Below are positions 2,604 to 15,453 of a DNA stretch of 64,000 nucleotides, one piece after another (the stretch's first letter is position 1; the number at the start of each line of letters is the position of its first letter). Below the pieces are notes generated by a model. That model saw only the letters and a list, made by a program, of their open reading frames with translations. It had not been told where the DNA came from and searched no databases. Source of the DNA: Anderseniella sp. (GTDB taxonomy: Bacteria; Pseudomonadota; Alphaproteobacteria; Rhizobiales; Aestuariivirgaceae); assembly GCA_028289645.1 (NCBI GenBank), contig JANQOK010000020.1, positions 42,562 to 106,561 on the forward strand, read 5' to 3'. Made by a program: the position numbers and the translations under genes.

Positions 2604-6353
<3,750 letters not shown>

Positions 6354-7299: not shown

Positions 7300-7758
7300 C
7301 TAGTCGATCACTGGAAAGACACCGGTTTTCTTGACGGTTCCGTAGACGAAGCTGGTGTCGATTGACCCGATGCCGCCAACCGGGTGCAGTCGCTTGCGCA
7401 CGAACGTCTCGTAGTGGTCAAGATCGGCCACCACGACACGCAACAGGTAATCGGACAGTCCTGTCATCACATAGCATTCCAGTACCTCGTCGATGGCCCT
7501 GATGCGGTTTTCAAATTGCTGGACGGCGTCTTCGGTATGCCTTTCCAGGCTGACCCGCACGAACGCATTGACCGGCAGTCCGTAGGCTTTGCTGTCCACA
7601 TCCACGCTGTAACCGCGTATCGCGCCGGCGGCTTCAAGGTTCTTCAGCCGGCGCAGGCATGGCGACGGTGACAGGTTGACCTCCGCCGCAAGGTCCTGGT
7701 TGGTCATACGGCCGTTGCGTTGCAGCGTGCGGACGATTTGACGGTCTTTATCGTCCAT
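7300..7758 (-). CDS. Lrp/AsnC family regulator (MdeR-like), divergent from methionine gamma-lyase
   Basis: N-terminal DxxDRxIL..LQ.NGR HTH, LSPSPCLRR, C-terminal ECY.MTG..DYLLRV RAM domain. Confidence 0.93.
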   Translation of the reverse strand: MDDKDRQIVRTLQRNGRMTNQDLAAEVNLSPSPCLRRLKNLEAAGAIRGYSVDVDSKAYGLPVNAFVRVSLERHTEDAVQQFENRIRAIDEVLECYVMTGLSDYLLRVVVADLDHYETFVRKRLHPVGGIGSIDTSFVYGTVKKTGVFPVID

Positions 7759-7873
7759 TTCATGATCCTGATTAGCAATAAATTCTAATATTTAGTACTG
7801 TATTGGCATAAATAGCAATAATCAGCCGTGCAAACAGGCATATGCTGGATCCCACACATCACGGGAGATTGCC
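7759..7873. promoter_or_regulatory. AT-rich divergent promoter with repeated tagcaataa, likely Lrp-family binding region
   Basis: Markedly AT-rich versus flanks; tagcaataa occurs twice. Confidence 0.45.
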
Positions 7874-9079
7874 ATGAAACCATCATCAAAGAGCTTTGCC
7901 ACGCGCGCCATTCACCATGGCTATGAACCGGCCGACAACGAAGGCGCCCTGACCCCGCCACTGCACCTGACATCGACTTTCGCCTTCGAAAGCGCCGAAG
8001 CCGGCGGTGAAATGTTCAGTGGAGACAGGCCGGGCCACATCTATTCGCGCATCTCAAACCCGACCCTTGACCTGCTGGAGCGCCGCATTGCCGACCTTGA
8101 GGAGGCCGGGGCCGGCCTGGCGCTTGCCTCGGGCATGGGCGCTATCTCGGCCACCTTGTGGACCCTGGTCGCGCCCGGCGACGAGATCATTGTCGACAAG
8201 ACCCTCTATGGCTGCACGTTCTCCTATTTGCGCCACGGACTGGGCAAGTTCGGTGTTACCGTCACCCATGTGGATCTGACGGATTCTGATAACCTGGTTG
8301 AGGCCATCAGCGAGCACACCAGGGTGGTTTACTTTGAGACCCCGGCCAATCCCAACATGCGGCTGGTGGATATCGAACGTGTGGCAGAGATCGCACACTC
8401 AAAGGGCGCCGTCGTTGTTGTCGACAATACCTATGCCACGCCTTACCTGACCCGCCCGGTGACACTCGGCGCCGACCTAGTCGTCCACTCGGCCACCAAA
8501 TATCTCGGTGGCCATGGCGACGTGGTCGCCGGCCTCGTGGCGGGAAATGCCGACATGATTGCTGATATCCGCATGTACGGCATGAAGGACATGACCGGTG
8601 CCGTGATGGCGCCGTTCAATGCCATGCTGATCTTGCGCGGCATCAAGACCCTGGGGCTGCGCATGGACCGGCATAGCCAGAGCGCATTGACCGTTGCCCG
8701 CATGCTGGAGCAGCACCCCGCCGTCCGCAAGGTCTTCTATCCCGGTTTGCCCGTTTATGAGCAGCATGAACTGGCCTGCCGGCAGATGTCCCGGTTCGGC
8801 GGCATGATCGCGTTTGAACTGCACGGTGGCCTGGATGCCGGGCGGGCCCTGATGAACCGCCTGCAGATGATCATGCGCGCAGTGTCTCTGGGGGATGCGG
8901 AAACCCTGATCCAGCATCCCGCCAGCATGACGCATTCCACCTATACAGCGGAAGAGCGAATGGTGCATGGTATTAGCGATGGCCTCGTGCGCCTGTCGGT
9001 CGGGCTTGAGGATGTCGAGGATATCCTGGCAGATCTTGAACAGGCGCTGCCAACGCAACCCAAACTGAAAGCTGCATAG
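7874..9079 (+). CDS. megL: Methionine gamma-lyase
   Basis: YSRISNPT, LYGCT (the Cys is typical of MGL), SATKYLGGHGD PLP-lysine motif, RAVSLGDAETLIQHPASMTH. Confidence 0.92.
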   Translation: MKPSSKSFATRAIHHGYEPADNEGALTPPLHLTSTFAFESAEAGGEMFSGDRPGHIYSRISNPTLDLLERRIADLEEAGAGLALASGMGAISATLWTLVAPGDEIIVDKTLYGCTFSYLRHGLGKFGVTVTHVDLTDSDNLVEAISEHTRVVYFETPANPNMRLVDIERVAEIAHSKGAVVVVDNTYATPYLTRPVTLGADLVVHSATKYLGGHGDVVAGLVAGNADMIADIRMYGMKDMTGAVMAPFNAMLILRGIKTLGLRMDRHSQSALTVARMLEQHPAVRKVFYPGLPVYEQHELACRQMSRFGGMIAFELHGGLDAGRALMNRLQMIMRAVSLGDAETLIQHPASMTHSTYTAEERMVHGISDGLVRLSVGLEDVEDILADLEQALPTQPKLKAA

Positions 9080-9088
9080 ATCAGGTTC

Positions 9089-11479
9089 ATGACGCAAACA
9101 CAAACCCATCTGAAAACCATCGAGCAGCGGCTGCTGTGGCTGTCGCACTGGATGATCCACAACGCCAACCACATCCGGCCCAAGGCTGACGGCATCAAGG
9201 TCGGCGGCCACCAGGCATCGTCGGCTTCCATGGTGTCGATCATGACGGCGCTGTATTTCTCCGCGCTCAGGCCTGAAGACAGGGTGGCGGTCAAGCCGCA
9301 TGCGTCGCCGATCTTCCACGCCATCCAGTACCTGATGGGCAACCAGACCCGCGAGAAGATGGAGAACTTTCGCGGGCTCGGCGGCGTCCAGTCGTACCCA
9401 TCGCGCACCAAGGATATCGACGATGTCGACTTTTCGACCGGCTCGGTCGGCCTCGGCGTCGCGATAACCTCGTTCGCATCGCTGGTGCAGGACTACATTA
9501 CCGCCAAGCACTGGGGGCAGGGCGTGCCGCTGGGTAGAATGGTGGCGCTGGTCGGTGATGCCGAACTGGACGAGGGCAATATCTACGAGGCCCTGCAGGA
9601 AGGCTGGAAGAACGACCTGCGCAATACCTGGTGGGTTATCGACTATAACCGCCAGTCGCTGGACGGCGTGGTGCGCGAAGGCCTCTGGCAGCGGGTGGAA
9701 AAGATATTCGACGCCTTCGGCTGGGACGTGGTGCGCGTCAAGTACGGTCATCTGCAGCGCGCCGCCTTTGAGGAAAACGGCGGCGACAAGCTGCGTGCAT
9801 GGATCGATGCCTGTCCCAACCAGCTATATTCGGCGCTGACATTCATGGGCGGGTCCGTGTGGCGCCAGCGTCTGATGGACGATCTGGGCGATCAGGGTGA
9901 TGTGACCGCTCTGATTGATGCACGGTCCGACGACCAGCTGGCTGAGCTGATGGAAAACCTCGGCGGCAACTGCGTCGCGACGATGGCGGGAGCGTTTGCA
10001 TCCGTCGACCACGACCGGCCGGTGTGTTTTCTTGCCTACACGGTCAAGGGCTGGGGCACGCCCATTGCCGGCCACAAGGACAACCACGGCGGTCTGATGA
10101 ACAAGGCCCAGATGGCTGAATGGCAACAGCACATGGGCGTGGCCGAGGGTGAGGAATGGGATCGGTTTGCCACCGTCAGTGACCCCGATGCGCTACAGGC
10201 GTTTCTCGACCAGGCGGCCTTCTTTTCCAAGGGTGTGCGGCGGTTCACCGAACCGGCAATTAAGGTGCCGGCAATTGACCCCGCCGCGGACCGTGAAATC
10301 TCCACCCAGATGGGTTTCGGCAAGATCCTCGATGAGCTGTCGAAGGGTGACAGTGTGCTGGCTGAGCGCATCGTCACCACCTCGCCGGATGTCACCGGCA
10401 CCACCAACCTCGGCCCGTGGGTCAACCGGCGCAAGCTGTTCGCCCGTACCGAGCAGGCCGACACCTTCATCAACGAGAAGATTCCCTCCACCGCAAAATG
10501 GGAGTTCACGCCCGAAGGCCAGCACATCGAGCTTGGCATTGCGGAAATGAACCTGTTCCTGCTGCTCGGTGCCGCTGGACTGTCCCATTCCCTGTTCGGC
10601 AAGCGGCTGTTGCCGGTCGGCACCGTGTACGATCCGTTCGTGGCCCGCGGCCTCGATGCCCTGAACTATGCCTGCTACCAGGACGCCCGCTTCATGATCG
10701 TCGGCACGCCGTCCGGGGTCACGCTGGCGCCCGAAGGCGGCGCGCACCAGTCCGTCGGCTCGCCGCTGATCGGCATGAGCCAGGACGGATTGGCCGCGTT
10801 TGAGCCGGCCTTTGTCGACGAGCTGGCAGTGATCATGCGGTGGGCGTTTGAATACATGCAGAAGGACGGCGAGGGCGACCCGGATGAGCGCACCTGGCTG
10901 CGCGATGAAACCGGTGGCTCGGTCTATCTGCGTTTAAGCACCAACCCGATCGAACAGCCCGGCACCCGCATCAATGACGATTTCCGGCAGGGCACCATTG
11001 ACGGCGCCTACTGGCTGCGCGAGCCGGGCCCAAACTGCGAGGTGGTTATCGCCTACCAGGGCTGTGTGGCCCCGCAGGCCATCGCCGCCGCCGCCCGCAT
11101 TGCCGAGGTCCGGCGCGATGTCGGCGTGCTGGCTGTTACTTCCGCTGATCGTCTCAACGCCGGATGGACGGCAGCCCAGCGCGACCGCCGGCGCGGCAAT
11201 GCCCGTGCCCGCTCCCACATCGAGGCGCTGCTGTCGCCGCTGCCGGGCAACTGTTCCATTGTCACGGTAATCGACGGTCACCCGGCAACGCTCGCCTGGC
11301 TCGGCGGTGTCATCGGGCACCGGACCATCCCGCTGGGCGTGGAACACTTCGGCCAGACCGGTACCATTGCCGATCTCTACGATCATTTCGGCATCGATGC
11401 CAACGCCATTGTGCACGCGGCAACAGGTTTGACCGATGGCAGTTCCGAAATCCCTGCGCTGCTGTTCACCGGATCATGA
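9089..11479 (+). CDS. AceE-like thiamine-diphosphate 2-oxoacid dehydrogenase E1 (MdeB-like)
   Basis: GGHQASSAS, FSTGSVGLG, GDAELDEG TPP motif, GIAEMN, EGGAHQS; 10 bp downstream of megL. Confidence 0.85.
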   Translation: MTQTQTHLKTIEQRLLWLSHWMIHNANHIRPKADGIKVGGHQASSASMVSIMTALYFSALRPEDRVAVKPHASPIFHAIQYLMGNQTREKMENFRGLGGVQSYPSRTKDIDDVDFSTGSVGLGVAITSFASLVQDYITAKHWGQGVPLGRMVALVGDAELDEGNIYEALQEGWKNDLRNTWWVIDYNRQSLDGVVREGLWQRVEKIFDAFGWDVVRVKYGHLQRAAFEENGGDKLRAWIDACPNQLYSALTFMGGSVWRQRLMDDLGDQGDVTALIDARSDDQLAELMENLGGNCVATMAGAFASVDHDRPVCFLAYTVKGWGTPIAGHKDNHGGLMNKAQMAEWQQHMGVAEGEEWDRFATVSDPDALQAFLDQAAFFSKGVRRFTEPAIKVPAIDPAADREISTQMGFGKILDELSKGDSVLAERIVTTSPDVTGTTNLGPWVNRRKLFARTEQADTFINEKIPSTAKWEFTPEGQHIELGIAEMNLFLLLGAAGLSHSLFGKRLLPVGTVYDPFVARGLDALNYACYQDARFMIVGTPSGVTLAPEGGAHQSVGSPLIGMSQDGLAAFEPAFVDELAVIMRWAFEYMQKDGEGDPDERTWLRDETGGSVYLRLSTNPIEQPGTRINDDFRQGTIDGAYWLREPGPNCEVVIAYQGCVAPQAIAAAARIAEVRRDVGVLAVTSADRLNAGWTAAQRDRRRGNARARSHIEALLSPLPGNCSIVTVIDGHPATLAWLGGVIGHRTIPLGVEHFGQTGTIADLYDHFGIDANAIVHAATGLTDGSSEIPALLFTGS

Positions 11480-12093
11480 CTGGGCATCTGCAGAATTCAA
11501 CTGCTCAGCACATCCGCAGCTGGATCGTCTTGATGTTTGCGGCACTGGTAATGACAGTTTTCGCCGGCAATGCCGGAGCGCAATCAGACAGTGCCACTGA
11601 ACTGGCTCCGGTTCCGGAGTGTTCCAACAACAAGGGTGAGGCGGTTCAGTTCAGCAATACCGACCGGGGGCGTCCCGGTCTGGCAGCAGGTATGGCCATC
11701 CGGGACAAAAGCGGGACACCCGTGGTGTTTCGATCCAACTTTGCTGCGGCGCCGCGCGAGTTTCAGCAATTCATCGACCGGCATGAATGCGCCCATCACC
11801 AGACCGGGGATGTTGACCGCCCGCATCCGCCGCGCAACGGGCCCGAACACCTGATGAACGAGGCCATCAGCGACTGCGTGGCCATCCGCCGCCTGCGCGA
11901 TGAAGAAGGCTTTGGCCGGGAGGCCTTCGACAAGGTAACCGCAGCCCTGCGTACCGACATGGCGAAGATCGGGTTTCCAGAGAGCAGCATCGCCAGCCGG
12001 ATCCGCAATATTGCTGGCTGTTTCGAAAACCCGGCCTCAGCTGGTGATCTGATCAGGCAGGTTTTGCAGGAGAGGGGACTGCCGGTGCAGTAA
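11476..12093 (+). CDS. Secreted HExxH putative zinc metallopeptidase-fold protein
   Basis: ATGA overlap with the upstream stop; signal peptide ending AGA-Q; HECAH plus downstream EAISDC. Confidence 0.7.
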   Translation: MTGHLQNSTAQHIRSWIVLMFAALVMTVFAGNAGAQSDSATELAPVPECSNNKGEAVQFSNTDRGRPGLAAGMAIRDKSGTPVVFRSNFAAAPREFQQFIDRHECAHHQTGDVDRPHPPRNGPEHLMNEAISDCVAIRRLRDEEGFGREAFDKVTAALRTDMAKIGFPESSIASRIRNIAGCFENPASAGDLIRQVLQERGLPVQ

Positions 12094-12145: not shown

Positions 12146-13468
12146 TCAGCTCCTGACAAAGTGCAACCGGTCGAACTGCCGCCTGAAGGTGGCCACCTCG
12201 CTGGCCAGCGAAGTTGGATCGTTGGTGGTCAATGCGCGGGCGATCAGTCCAGCCAATTTCGTCGCATGATCCGGCGTGACGCCCCAGCGCACCAGCTCCG
12301 GCGTGCCGATGCGCAGGCCGTTCATATCGCCCGCCACATCTTCACCTGGCAGGCCGATGCCACAGGCAAGAAAACCTGCCTGGCGCAGTTTTTTCGACGC
12401 CGCTTGGCCGCCGCCGAAACCGGCCGCTTCAATGGCAAACTGGTGTGACTGTGTGAACCCGAACGATTTGCCATGCACCGGCAGGCCATTGGCGTCGAGG
12501 GCTTGGGCCAGTGCCAGGGCCAGTTCGACCATGGCGGCGGCGTAGGCAGTACCATGCTCACGCCAGTCCAGCATGGTGACGGCCAGGGCGGCGGACTTGG
12601 CCGCATCGAAGTTGGCGGTCATGCCGGGAAAAGCAATATGATCGAGCCGTTCAGCGATGCCGGCATCGTTGCTGACGATGAGCCCGCCGGCCGGACCGCC
12701 GAGGCTCTTGTAGGTGCTCATGGTCATCATGTGCGCACCTTGTGCCAGCGGGTTGGGCCAGGCCTTGCCGGCAATAATGCCGCATTGGTGCGCCGCATCG
12801 AACAGCACCTTGGCGCCAACATCGTCGGCAATCTCACGTACCTCGGCCACCGGATGCGGCAGGAGGTTGAGGCTGCCACCGATGGTGATGAGTTTGGGGC
12901 GAACCTTGCCTGCAAGTGTCCGCAAGCCGTCCACATCAATTGTATAGCCGTCGGCCCTGATCGGCGCCTGATGAATGTCGAGGCCATAAAGGCCTGCACA
13001 TCCGGCGTCGTGATGGGTGACATGACCGCCGATGGAGGCGGGTGGGACGATCACCGCATTGCCAGGGCTGGTCAGGGCCATGAACCCGTAAAGGTTGGCC
13101 ATGGCGCCGGACGCCACGCGAATTTCCGCATACCGGGCGCTGAAAATCTCCGCACACAACTCGGCGGTGATGACTTCAATTTCCTGGATGGCCTCCAGGC
13201 CCATCTCGTACTTGTCACCCGGATACCCGAGTGAGGGGCGCGAGCCCAGTCCGGCCGACAGCATGGCCTCGGCGCGCGGGTTCATCACATTGGTGGCCGG
13301 GTTGAGATTGAAGCAGTCACGCTCGTGGATGGTCCTGTTGAGATCAACCAGTTGATCGAGCCGGGCATCAATCTGTGCGCTGGATGCCTGCGCAGTGTCC
13401 TCGGCAATGCGCTGCACCAGTGTCTCGCAAGGGGCAGGGACCCAGGGTCTTGTAGTGAGGGATGTCAT
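12146..13468 (-). CDS. SHMT-fold PLP enzyme (annotation-level serine hydroxymethyltransferase; non-canonical active site)
   Basis: GYPG, GGHVTH, DAAH, STYKSLGGPAGG, GLRIGTP; AAGGAG RBS before ATG 13468. Confidence 0.85.
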   Translation of the reverse strand: MTSLTTRPWVPAPCETLVQRIAEDTAQASSAQIDARLDQLVDLNRTIHERDCFNLNPATNVMNPRAEAMLSAGLGSRPSLGYPGDKYEMGLEAIQEIEVITAELCAEIFSARYAEIRVASGAMANLYGFMALTSPGNAVIVPPASIGGHVTHHDAGCAGLYGLDIHQAPIRADGYTIDVDGLRTLAGKVRPKLITIGGSLNLLPHPVAEVREIADDVGAKVLFDAAHQCGIIAGKAWPNPLAQGAHMMTMSTYKSLGGPAGGLIVSNDAGIAERLDHIAFPGMTANFDAAKSAALAVTMLDWREHGTAYAAAMVELALALAQALDANGLPVHGKSFGFTQSHQFAIEAAGFGGGQAASKKLRQAGFLACGIGLPGEDVAGDMNGLRIGTPELVRWGVTPDHATKLAGLIARALTTNDPTSLASEVATFRRQFDRLHFVRS

Positions 13469-13581
13469 CGCGGGCTCCTTTGCCGACAAAGCGTACGTAT
13501 CGCTGTCCCACCAGATCAGCAGTCGGGCTTGCAGGCAAATCAGTTTTGCGAAATATTAGGGTTAGAAAAATTGAGGCTAAT

Positions 13582-14448
13582 ATGGCTGTTGCACCTCCGC
13601 GACCGAAAGACATTCCGCTGAACGCCTTGCGGGCGTTTGAAGCTGCCGCCCGGCTTGGCGGTTTTGCCGCAGCCGCGCAGGAACTGGGCGTGACGCCGGG
13701 AGCCATAACCGCGCACGTAAAGACACTGGAGGCGGCGCTCGGCGCGGCCCTGTTTGAACGCACACCGCGCGGTGTGCAACTGAACGGTCTGGGGCGCAAG
13801 GTGTTGCCCTCTTTCACCGAGGCGTTCGACGGGCTCGGTCTGGCTGTCCAGACTCTGCGCAATGAAGCAGCCCCGAGCACTGTTCACATCGCTGCCCTGC
13901 CGTCGCTGGCGCAATTGTGGCTGTCACCGCGCCTGCCGGCCCTGCGGGCAGCGGCACCTGACATATCGATCTCGATAACGGCAATGGAAGCACCGCCCAA
14001 CCTCAAGCGCACGCCCTACGATCTAAGCCTGTTTTTCAGCAACGATAGCGGCGGCGCACTGTCCCGTGACGTGATCTTTCCCGTCTGCTCGCCGGGCCTG
14101 GCCGCGCGGCTCAGGTCGCCGCAGGACCTGTCGCAAGTGTCATTGCTGTCTGATTCAACCTGGGCCAACGACTGGGCCATATGGTCTGCTGCAGCAGGCT
14201 GCGAGTGCACGCCACGTGGACCGGTGTTCTCACTGTACACTCTGGCCGTCGAGGAGACTGTCAACGGCGCTGGCGTGCTGATGGGGCACGAAGCATTGGT
14301 CGCGTTGCACCTGGCGAGCGGCGAACTGGTGGCGCCTTTTGATCTCAAGGTTGAAATGGACAGGTCCCTCAGCCTGTGGTCGCAGCGGCATTTCAGGTCG
14401 GGCAGCGCGGCTGACAGGGTGATGCAGTGGCTGCGGGAAAACAACTGA
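13582..14448 (+). CDS. LysR family regulator, GcvA subfamily
   Basis: PLNALRAFEAAAR..F..AA.EL.VTP.A HTH; divergent from the SHMT-like gene. Confidence 0.93.
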   Translation: MAVAPPRPKDIPLNALRAFEAAARLGGFAAAAQELGVTPGAITAHVKTLEAALGAALFERTPRGVQLNGLGRKVLPSFTEAFDGLGLAVQTLRNEAAPSTVHIAALPSLAQLWLSPRLPALRAAAPDISISITAMEAPPNLKRTPYDLSLFFSNDSGGALSRDVIFPVCSPGLAARLRSPQDLSQVSLLSDSTWANDWAIWSAAAGCECTPRGPVFSLYTLAVEETVNGAGVLMGHEALVALHLASGELVAPFDLKVEMDRSLSLWSQRHFRSGSAADRVMQWLRENN

Positions 14449-14463: not shown

Positions 14464-15453
14464 CTAGTTGCGTGAGCGCCACATGCCCTTGCCGGCCAGC
14501 GGGCGGTCTCTGACGACGGCCTCGCGCCGCAACACGTAAACCCCGGATGCAATGATCATCAGGGCGCCAATAAGCGTCGTGGATTTCGGCACTTCGCCCC
14601 ACAGCAGGAACGACAGGATGGTCGCCCACAGCATCGAGGTGTACTCGAATGGCGCGACGGTGGGCGCATTGCCGATACGGTAGGCGGTCGCCAGCAGCCA
14701 GAACCCCAGGGCGGAGATGAACCCGATCACCACGATCAACACCAGTTCAATCCCGGTCGGCATGTGCCATGGCAGCAGCAGGAATTTCATTGTGCCGTCC
14801 AGGCCGGCCGAAGGCTCGATATTGGCCAGCAGCACACCGATCGCGCCACCGCAGTAGAAAAACGTGATCATCATGTAGAACGCCATCACCGAGCCTGATT
14901 CCGTGATCCCCATCTTGCGGCCGAGCAGCGCCGAAATCGAGTAGCAGAAAGCCGCCAGAATAGGCAGGATGGCCGCCGCCTGAAAGGTGTCCGCACCGGG
15001 CTGGATGATCACCATGGCACCGGCAAACCCGAACAGTATGCCGGCCCATCTGCGCCAGCCCACCCGCTCTCCGAGTATCGGAACGGCAAGTGCAGTGATG
15101 AACAGTGGCGCGGTGAACCAGATCGCCACCACCGCTGTCAGCGGCATCGTCGGAAGCGCCAGATAATAGAAGAAAAACGCGCCGAATCCGATAAACGAGC
15201 GCAGCGCGTGCATGATCGGGTGTCTTGTCGCCAGCGTTCCCAGGCCGGATTCGTAGTGCACGATCATGAACATCAGGGGCAGGGCGATGATGGCGCGGAC
15301 AAACACGATCTGGTGCGCCGGATACCGGTCCGACAACTGTTTTACGATCACATCCTGAAACGAGAAGATGAATATCCCGGCACACAGGAACAGAACTGCA
15401 CGAGCCGTATCGCTCATGCCGGACAGTCGGAAATTGCCGGTGGGAACGCTCAT
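14464..15453 (-). CDS. DMT/EamA family transporter
   Basis: About 10 TM segments; GERVGWRRW and APFEYTSMLWA motifs; alternative start at 15417. Confidence 0.9.
   Translation of the reverse strand: MSVPTGNFRLSGMSDTARAVLFLCAGIFIFSFQDVIVKQLSDRYPAHQIVFVRAIIALPLMFMIVHYESGLGTLATRHPIMHALRSFIGFGAFFFYYLALPTMPLTAVVAIWFTAPLFITALAVPILGERVGWRRWAGILFGFAGAMVIIQPGADTFQAAAILPILAAFCYSISALLGRKMGITESGSVMAFYMMITFFYCGGAIGVLLANIEPSAGLDGTMKFLLLPWHMPTGIELVLIVVIGFISALGFWLLATAYRIGNAPTVAPFEYTSMLWATILSFLLWGEVPKSTTLIGALMIIASGVYVLRREAVVRDRPLAGKGMWRSRN

What the first reader, a model, noticed from the sequence alone, without database searches (positions are those of the whole stretch)
12146..14448. SHMT-fold enzyme that has lost the SHMT catalytic and folate residues, with its own GcvA-type regulator
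Seen, aligned by eye to E. coli GlyA: the PLP Lys (STYK), Asp (DAAH), His (GGHVTH) and carboxylate-binding Arg (GLRIGTP) are kept. LIASEN becomes LNPATN, and KYAEGYPGKRYYGG becomes RPSLGYPGDKYEMG, so the Tyr55, Glu57 and Tyr65 equivalents are lost; His228 becomes Tyr. Known: these residues handle the serine hydroxyl and folate in SHMT, and SHMT-fold relatives include threonine transaldolases and other aldolases. Inference: probably a mis-annotated enzyme for a different beta-hydroxy or N-methylated amino acid, sensed by the divergent LysR; the adjacent EamA transporter may belong to the module.
Basis: partly seen in the sequence, partly recalled or inferred. Interest (0 to 1): 0.58.

Follow-up and report, generated by a model that had tools for sequence, protein, structure and literature searches.

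The report
Folate-less SHMT-like enzyme with own regulator
This is one member of a large, uncharacterised family of enzymes that look like serine hydroxymethyltransferase and are often annotated as such, but whose folate-handling catalytic residues are all replaced in the same way; it most likely splits or builds a hydroxy-amino acid without folate, under a dedicated regulator.

Summary
Window 12146-13468 (-) encodes a 440-aa protein with the SHMT fold (AlphaFold pLDDT 91.5; TM 0.87-0.91 to M. jannaschii SHMT). It keeps the PLP and carboxylate residues (E. coli K229, D200, H203, H126, R363). It has S35A, Y55P, E57L, Y65E, H228Y, R235A, K346G and N347I, and lacks G262-G263.

These changes are not private to this gene. 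They are essentially invariant in 236 homologues. The family occurs in at least 592 species genomes, mostly marine Alphaproteobacteria, and also Burkholderiales. The window's genome has a canonical glyA elsewhere.

A GcvA-like LysR gene (13582-14448) is divergently paired with the enzyme gene in 48 of 80 alphaproteobacterial loci, over a conserved operator block (13535-13581). The EamA gene is not a conserved partner.

In Burkholderiales the orthologue sits in operons with amino-acid ABC uptake genes and, twice, with L-serine ammonia-lyase.

Best reading (about 0.5): an inducible, folate-independent PLP aldolase for a hydroxy-amino acid, comparable to alpha-methylserine aldolase. The substrate is unknown.

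First readers of this scan flagged the same family on eight other genomes. Novelty: a new variant of a known kind. Interest is moderate.

The parts
12146..13468 (-). SHMT-fold PLP enzyme gene (440 aa, 46.3 kDa) with a remodelled active site. Signatures: NPATN, RPSLGYPGDKYEMG, STYKSLGGPAGG.
   Evidence: PF00464 scores 134 bits. NF000586 scores 267.8, below its 335 cut-off. It is 100% identical to database protein P0005. Alignment to GlyA. AF2 model pLDDT 91.5, with Foldseek TM 0.87-0.91 to SHMT structures. RBS AAGGAG lies before the ATG at 13468.
13469..13581 (.). 113-bp divergent promoter/operator region. The conserved block is 13535-13581. It holds the inverted repeat GCAAA-N5-TTTGC (13535-13549) and ATTAG-N17-CTAAT (13555-13581).
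   Evidence: Sequence. The block is conserved in alignments of 4 and of 48 orthologous intergenic regions from several orders. On the enzyme-gene strand the consensus reads TTAGcCttAgtTTTTCTA.gcCtA...tttagcAAaaCTgaTTTGC.
13582..14448 (+). LysR-family regulator of the GcvA-like subfamily (288 aa), transcribed divergently from the enzyme gene.
   Evidence: HTH_1 and LysR_substrate domains. Best NCBIfam hit is the GcvA subfamily at 189.7 bits, below the 288 cut-off. An orthologue (48-100% identity) sits in the same divergent position in 48 of 80 alphaproteobacterial loci.

Best explanation
The gene encodes a homologue of serine hydroxymethyltransferase that no longer uses tetrahydrofolate. It most likely works as a PLP-dependent aldolase, running a reversible retro-aldol reaction.

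Proposed mechanism:
- An alpha-amino acid with a free carboxylate (held by the retained Arg) forms the external aldimine on the retained Lys/Asp/His PLP site.
- The C-alpha-C-beta bond to a hydroxymethyl or hydroxyalkyl group is cleaved, releasing a free aldehyde and a smaller amino acid. Formaldehyde is the leading candidate for the aldehyde.
- The general base is probably the family-invariant Glu at the Tyr65 position, which would replace the lost Glu57.
- Loss of Tyr55 (to Pro) opens room at C-alpha. Alpha,alpha-disubstituted substrates of the alpha-methylserine type are therefore plausible.

Expression is controlled by the divergent GcvA-like LysR regulator through the conserved operator, presumably in response to the substrate or a product. 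This would make it an inducible catabolic enzyme for an imported amino acid.

Shown: the fold, the retained and replaced residues, family-wide invariance, the second canonical glyA, the regulator pairing, and the operon partners in Burkholderiales.
Inferred: folate independence, aldolase chemistry, the relocated base, and the inducer.
Unknown: the physiological substrate.
For: 1. SHMT fold with intact PLP and carboxylate residues.
2. E57L, N347I, K346G, Y55P and Y65E are invariant in 236 members.
3. The active-site Glu is described as conserved in all SHMTs, and its Gln substitution nearly abolishes the THF-dependent reaction (PMC11323337).
4. Roles of Tyr51*, Glu53*, Tyr61*, Ser31 and Arg358 in T. 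thermophilus SHMT are given in PMC10397204.
5. Changing Tyr55 in S. thermophilus SHMT (Y55T) widens the donor range to D-Ala and D-Ser, giving alpha,alpha-dialkyl amino acids (PMC4761611).
6. THF-independent SHMT homologues exist: alpha-methylserine aldolase (PMC7918591).
7. The genome keeps a canonical glyA scoring 574 bits, so the housekeeping role is covered.
8. Divergent LysR in 48 of 80 alphaproteobacterial loci and 33 of 66 metagenome loci, with a conserved operator.
9. In Burkholderiales orthologues (about 60% identical, same signature), the gene is followed by L-serine ammonia-lyase (L091, L095), by Liv-type binding protein or permeases (L091, L177, L178), or by a polar amino-acid ABC system plus asparaginase (L094). 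This fits catabolism of an imported amino acid.
10. Strong purifying selection: 70-88% identity across orders.
Against: - No enzyme of this family has been assayed, as far as the tools could show. All database names are generic.
- The same neutron-crystallography papers propose the lost Glu as the base for the THF-independent reaction too. Aldolase activity therefore depends on an untested substitute base.
- The link to free formaldehyde is weak. frmA/frmB lie within 7 kb in only 4 of 167 loci, representing three lineages. That is not clearly above chance.
- Pairing with sdaA also fits a glycine-to-serine-to-pyruvate route using a C1 carrier.
- In most marine loci there is no metabolic partner gene at all.
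Confidence: 0.5

Rival explanations
1. It carries out a different PLP reaction on an amino acid, for example racemisation or epimerisation (D-Ser or D-Ala to the L form, followed by serine ammonia-lyase), transamination, or aminomalonate-type decarboxylation. All of these are known side reactions of SHMT, here promoted to the main activity.
For: SHMT side reactions include racemisation and transamination of L- and D-alanine and decarboxylation of aminomalonate (PMC11323337). The invariant new Tyr next to the PLP Lys and the new Glu could provide a second acid/base. The regulator's subfamily also includes the D-serine sensor DsdC, which scores 152 bits. The sdaA gene downstream in two Burkholderiales loci would consume L-serine.
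Against: No racemase- or aminotransferase-specific signature could be tested. No partner genes such as a keto-acid handler recur. This is inference only.
Confidence: 0.2
2. It is still a C1-carrier-dependent hydroxymethyltransferase: a catabolic SHMT isozyme for glycine/serine, analogous to glyA2-sdaA clusters, with a rebuilt pterin pocket.
For: The regulator is GcvA-like. SHMT-like plus sdaA operons occur in Bordetella and Paraburkholderia. The closest solved structure is the H4MPT-dependent M. jannaschii SHMT.
Against: The catalytic Glu and the pterin-binding Asn are replaced by Leu and Ile in every member. Archaeal-type SHMT-like clades keep Y, E, Y and N. No Fae homologue was found in this 98.7% complete genome, so there is no hint of an H4MPT pathway. 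The NF000586 cut-off is not reached.
Confidence: 0.12
3. It is an L-threonine transaldolase-type enzyme that moves the glycyl unit of threonine onto another aldehyde.
For: It has the SHMT fold without folate residues, as transaldolases do. TIGR04506 is the second-best NCBIfam hit.
Against: TIGR04506 scores 178 bits against a cut-off of 650, and ObiH gives only E 1e-22. There is no biosynthetic gene cluster around the gene in any of 161 loci. The family is a stand-alone gene with a regulator, which fits catabolism rather than natural-product synthesis.
Confidence: 0.05

Closest known systems
Serine hydroxymethyltransferase (GlyA, EC 2.1.2.1), including M. jannaschii SHMT (PDB 4uqv/4bhd)
   Same: Same fold (TM 0.87-0.91). 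It shares the PLP Lys, Asp, the stacking His, the carboxylate Arg and a similar length. Identity is 29-31%.
   Different: It lacks the catalytic Glu57, Tyr55, Tyr65, Ser35, Arg235, the Asn347/Lys346 folate contacts and the GG of the phosphate loop. It scores below the curated cut-off. The genome has a separate canonical glyA.
Alpha-methylserine aldolase (Ralstonia, Variovorax, Bosea; Nozaki et al. 2008)
   Same: It is an SHMT homologue that works without THF and releases or uses free formaldehyde (PMC7918591). From my own recall of the abstract, the subunit is about 47 kDa; this protein is 46.3 kDa. Loss of Tyr55 would make room for the alpha-methyl group (PMC4761611).
   Different: Its sequence could not be obtained with these tools, so identity and shared signature are untested. 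No database entry of this family carries that name. Alpha-methylserine is an unlikely common marine substrate.
L-threonine transaldolases (ObiH, fluorothreonine transaldolase, LipK)
   Same: SHMT-fold PLP enzymes that have given up folate.
   Different: Only distant similarity (E 1e-22 to ObiH; TIGR04506 178 against 650). They lie in biosynthetic clusters. This family does not.
GcvA / DsdC subfamily of LysR regulators
   Same: Same domain architecture. Best profile hits are GcvA, the choline-sulfate regulator and DsdC. It is divergently transcribed from its target.
   Different: It scores below every curated cut-off. It is one of 27 such paralogues in this genome. The effector is unknown. Burkholderiales orthologues of the enzyme use a different LysR subtype.

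Membership tests
Serine hydroxymethyltransferase (GlyA) | SHMT fold / Pfam PF00464 | tested here: met
   PF00464 scores 134 bits. Foldseek TM is 0.87-0.91 to SHMT structures.
Serine hydroxymethyltransferase (GlyA) | PLP Lys229, Asp200, His126/His203 and carboxylate Arg363 | tested here: met
   All are present and invariant in 236 members.
Serine hydroxymethyltransferase (GlyA) | Active-site Glu57 (general acid/base, described as conserved in all SHMTs) | tested here: not met
   It is Leu in all 236 members. Role of the Glu: PMC11323337.
Serine hydroxymethyltransferase (GlyA) | Folate and substrate contacts: Tyr55, Tyr65, Asn347, Ser35 | tested here: not met
   They are Pro, Glu, Ile and Ala respectively, invariant or nearly so.
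Serine hydroxymethyltransferase (GlyA) | Curated NCBIfam score cut-off (NF000586, 335 bits) | tested here: not met
   It scores 267.8 bits. The genome's canonical glyA scores 574 bits on PF00464.
Serine hydroxymethyltransferase (GlyA) | THF-dependent Ser/Gly interconversion | not testable with these tools
   This needs an enzyme assay or glyA complementation.
Alpha-methylserine aldolase | Sequence relatedness to the characterised Ralstonia, Variovorax and Bosea enzymes | not testable with these tools
No hit in three homologue searches bears the name. The paper is not held.
Alpha-methylserine aldolase | THF-independent release of formaldehyde from alpha-methyl-L-serine | not testable with these tools
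   This needs an assay. Loss of the folate residues is consistent with it.
L-threonine transaldolase / fluorothreonine transaldolase | Curated model TIGR04506 (cut-off 650 bits) | tested here: not met
   It scores 178 bits. ObiH 7k34 gives E 1e-22, against 4e-62 for archaeal SHMT.
GcvA (glycine cleavage activator) | LysR architecture with a score above the GcvA subfamily cut-off (288 bits) | tested here: not met
   The architecture is present, but the score is 189.7 bits. Four other genes in this genome exceed the cut-off.

The most novel reading that the evidence does not exclude
The family is a natural folate-independent 'serine aldolase'. It would condense glycine with free formaldehyde, or the reverse, feeding serine to serine ammonia-lyase. 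That would give marine Alphaproteobacteria and Burkholderiales a glycine-inducible route to assimilate or detoxify formaldehyde. The formaldehyde would come from methylated amines, DMSP-derived methanethiol or glycine betaine. This would be a natural counterpart of the engineered serine-aldolase/serine-deaminase module.
Probability: 0.12. Interest if true: 0.8.

Novelty: new variant of a known kind. Interest (0 to 1): 0.45.

Why it matters
Thousands of genes in marine and soil bacteria are annotated as serine hydroxymethyltransferase or as a generic aminotransferase while lacking the residues needed for the folate reaction. Metabolic models therefore count a second SHMT that is probably not one.

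The family is tightly conserved and has its own inducible regulator. It should therefore correspond to a defined, still unassigned step in amino-acid or C1 metabolism.

Its rebuilt active site has the Glu moved from position 57 to 65, a Pro at 55 and a Tyr before the PLP Lys. This is a natural version of changes that engineers introduced into SHMT to make quaternary amino acids, so the enzyme may be useful in biocatalysis.

Tried and rejected
- **EamA as a module member:** rejected. Orthologues occur only in Anderseniella.
- **Conserved metabolic neighbours in marine loci:** none found in 161 loci. DUF1989, PNP_UDP_1, enoyl-CoA hydratase, SDR, and Cys/Met-PLP plus E1-like genes each occur in 6-14 loci, mostly as lineage synteny.
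- **Formaldehyde-detoxification adjacency:** frmA/frmB lie near L091, L132/L147 (same gene order) and L111. With an expectation of about one locus, Poisson P is about 0.08 for three or more lineages. Treated as inconclusive.
- **Naming by databases:** three homologue searches, two cluster look-ups and the ESM Atlas gave only generic names.
- **Curated families for sister clades:** none reaches a cut-off.
- **Retrieving the alpha-methylserine aldolase paper or sequence:** failed.
- **Contexts of the 53-59% relatives P0127-P0129:** the contigs were too short to say anything.
Full report
**What is there.**
The region holds three genes.
- An ORF on the minus strand, 12146-13489.
- A divergent ORF on the plus strand, 13462-14448.
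- A convergent EamA gene, 14464-15453 (-).

The minus-strand protein matches Pfam SHMT (134 bits). It falls below the curated NCBIfam SHMT cut-off (267.8 against 335). It is far below the fluorothreonine transaldolase cut-off (178 against 650).

The plus-strand protein has the HTH_1 and LysR_substrate domains. Its best profile hit is the GcvA subfamily at 189.7 bits, below the 288 cut-off.

The likely true starts are the ATG at 13468 for the enzyme and the ATG at 13582 for the regulator.
- The enzyme start is preceded by AAGGAG and gives 440 aa, identical to database protein P0005.
- The regulator start is preceded by GAGG and gives 288 aa.
- This leaves a 113-bp divergent intergenic region.

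**Check of the observation.**
I aligned the protein with E. coli GlyA (taken from NC_000913) and with the genome's own GlyA.
- Kept: K229, D200, H203, H126, H129, R363.
- Changed: S35 to A, Y55 to P, E57 to L, Y65 to E, H228 to Y.

- R235 to A.
- K346 to G.
- N347 to I.
- Loss of G262-G263 in the phosphate loop.

An AlphaFold model has mean pLDDT 91.5. It superposes on SHMT structures with TM 0.87-0.91. M. jannaschii SHMT is the best match. That entry is also the best sequence match among solved structures (E 4e-62), while ObiH reaches only 1e-22.

**It is a family, not an accident.**
- The closest 120 database proteins are 71-90% identical. They come from Anderseniella, Roseibium, Sneathiella, Thalassovita and many marine metagenomes. 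The window's organism is probably an Anderseniella, at 88% identity to Anderseniella genomes.
They include Rhodobacterales, Hyphomicrobiales, Rhodospirillales, Kiloniellales and Granulosicoccaceae.
- In an even sample of 300 alphaproteobacterial genomes, 14 carried one copy.
- A Burkholderiales branch (Paraburkholderia, Burkholderia, Trinickia, Caballeronia, Bordetella) is about 60% identical.
- In 236 full-length members, the motifs NPATN, RPSLGYPG-D-KYEMG and STYKS are invariant or nearly so. This includes P, L, E and Y at E. coli positions 55, 57, 65 and 228, and I at position 347.
- In a tree of 89 representatives, the family is nested in a well-supported clade of SHMT-like proteins that all have Tyr before the PLP Lys. 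Canonical and archaeal-type clades keep Y, E, Y, H and N.
- None of ten sister-clade representatives reaches the cut-off of any non-SHMT (specialised) NCBIfam model; six of them do clear the generic NF000586 SHMT-subfamily cut-off.
- The window's genome has a canonical glyA on another contig (574 bits), so this gene is a paralogue.

**Surroundings.**
I compared 84 genome loci and 83 metagenome or other loci.

Regulator pairing:
- The only recurrent neighbour is a divergent LysR gene.
- An orthologue of the window's regulator (48-100% identity) occupies the same position in 48 of 80 alphaproteobacterial loci with enough upstream sequence.
- A LysR of either type does so in 33 of 66 loci of the second set.
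- The intergenic regions share a conserved block that abuts the regulator's start. In the window this is 13535-13581, with GCAAA-N5-TTTGC and ATTAG-N17-CTAAT.
- Where the LysR is missing, the upstream genes are unrelated housekeeping genes.

EamA:
- The EamA gene is orthologous (over 90% identity) only in Anderseniella.
- Elsewhere there are only 25-32% identical EamA paralogues at varying places.
- I therefore do not count it as part of the unit.

Other neighbours:
- DUF1989, PNP_UDP_1, enoyl-CoA hydratase, SDR and Cys/Met-PLP enzymes occur in 6-14 loci each, mostly as lineage synteny.

Burkholderiales contexts are more informative.

| Organism | Locus | Gene order after the divergent LysR |
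|---|---|---|
| Paraburkholderia sp. PGU19 | L091 | enzyme, L-serine ammonia-lyase, Liv-type ABC importer |
| Bordetella genomosp. 10 | L095 | enzyme, L-serine ammonia-lyase 14 bp downstream |
| Burkholderia sp. Bp9031 | L177 | enzyme, Liv-type binding protein |
| Caballeronia arvi | L178 | enzyme, Liv-type binding protein |
| Trinickia acidisoli | L094 | enzyme, polar amino-acid ABC system, asparaginase |

In L091, S-(hydroxymethyl)glutathione dehydrogenase and S-formylglutathione hydrolase lie 2.8-3.7 kb upstream. Such formaldehyde genes lie within 7 kb in only 4 of 167 loci. These represent three lineages, because L132 and L147 share gene order. I treat this as not clearly above chance.

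**How it most likely works.**
The retained Lys, Asp, His and Arg say that it binds PLP and an alpha-amino acid with a free carboxylate.

What the changed residues normally do:
- The Glu at position 57 is described as conserved in all SHMTs. Its replacement by Gln nearly abolishes the THF-dependent reaction (PMC11323337).
- Tyr51*, Tyr61*, Ser31 and Gly258* of T. thermophilus SHMT hold the PLP phosphate and the substrate carboxylate or hydroxyl (PMC10397204). These correspond to E. coli 55, 65, 35 and 262.
- All of these are changed here, and the pterin-contacting Asn347 is Ile.

A folate-dependent transfer is therefore unlikely. [quoted passage not shown] A folate-independent SHMT homologue, alpha-methylserine aldolase, is known (PMC7918591).

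Replacing Tyr55 in S. thermophilus SHMT (Y55T) widens the donor range to D-Ala and D-Ser, giving alpha,alpha-dialkyl amino acids (PMC4761611). The invariant Pro here would have a comparable effect.

I infer the following:
- The invariant Glu at position 65, on the same partner-subunit loop as the lost Glu57, serves as the base.
- The enzyme is an inducible aldolase for an imported hydroxy-amino acid.
- The LysR protein senses the substrate or a product.

None of this chemistry has been tested. The substrate is unknown.

**Rivals.**
- *Another PLP reaction* (racemase, transaminase, decarboxylase). This would fit the new Tyr and Glu and the downstream serine ammonia-lyase.
- *A carrier-dependent catabolic SHMT for glycine/serine.* This would fit the GcvA-like regulator and the sdaA pairing. 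It is hard to reconcile with the loss of the Glu and Asn in every member. It also gets no support from the absence of Fae in a 98.7% complete genome.
- *A threonine transaldolase.* This is unlikely given the low scores and the lack of biosynthetic clusters.

**Known or new.**
- All names that the sources give this family are 'serine/glycine hydroxymethyltransferase', 'beta-eliminating lyase-related' or 'aminotransferase class I/II-fold'.
- I could not obtain the alpha-methylserine aldolase sequences, so membership in that enzyme family is open.
- First readers of this scan flagged the same family on eight other genomes, in varied contexts.
- I rate it a new variant of a known kind (folate-less SHMT-fold enzymes), of moderate interest.

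Noticed in passing
window 7300-11479: An Lrp/AsnC regulator gene (7300-7758, -) lies divergent from a methionine gamma-lyase gene (7874-9079; NF005695 at 724 bits). Nine bases downstream follows a 796-aa homodimeric-E1/transketolase-like gene. That gene scores far below every curated cut-off (aceE 174 bits against 860). The E1-like gene, flanked in the two longer loci by a Cys/Met-PLP gene, recurs next to the SHMT-like gene in Anderseniella; a single E1-like ORF also lies near it on one metagenome contig (L149). It may be a 2-oxobutanoate-handling enzyme.
   Followed up: partly
window 11476-12093 (+): A small ORF with a signal-peptide-like N-terminus (from about M105 of the 309-aa ORF 11164-12093). 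It has no Pfam or NCBIfam match. It lies between the E1-like gene and the SHMT-like gene.
   Followed up: no
L091:7330-8487: In Paraburkholderia sp. PGU19, the L-serine ammonia-lyase gene after the SHMT-like gene covers only positions 1-335 of the 450-position model (385-aa ORF). It may be truncated or frameshifted. The Bordetella copy (L095:9331-10713) is full length.
   Followed up: partly
plasmid NZ_CP029452.1 (Sinorhizobium fredii), hit H2: tblastn matches only residues 107-374 of the family protein, at 72.8% identity. This is probably a gene remnant on the symbiosis megaplasmid.
   Followed up: no
whole genome G000: There are 27 GcvA-subfamily LysR paralogues at E<=1e-30, four of them above the curated GcvA cut-off. 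There are also two class-III alcohol/formaldehyde dehydrogenase genes and no Fae homologue.
   Followed up: partly
window 2604-6353 (-): A 1249-aa class II (B12-dependent) ribonucleotide reductase with a C-terminal TSCPD domain.
   Followed up: no
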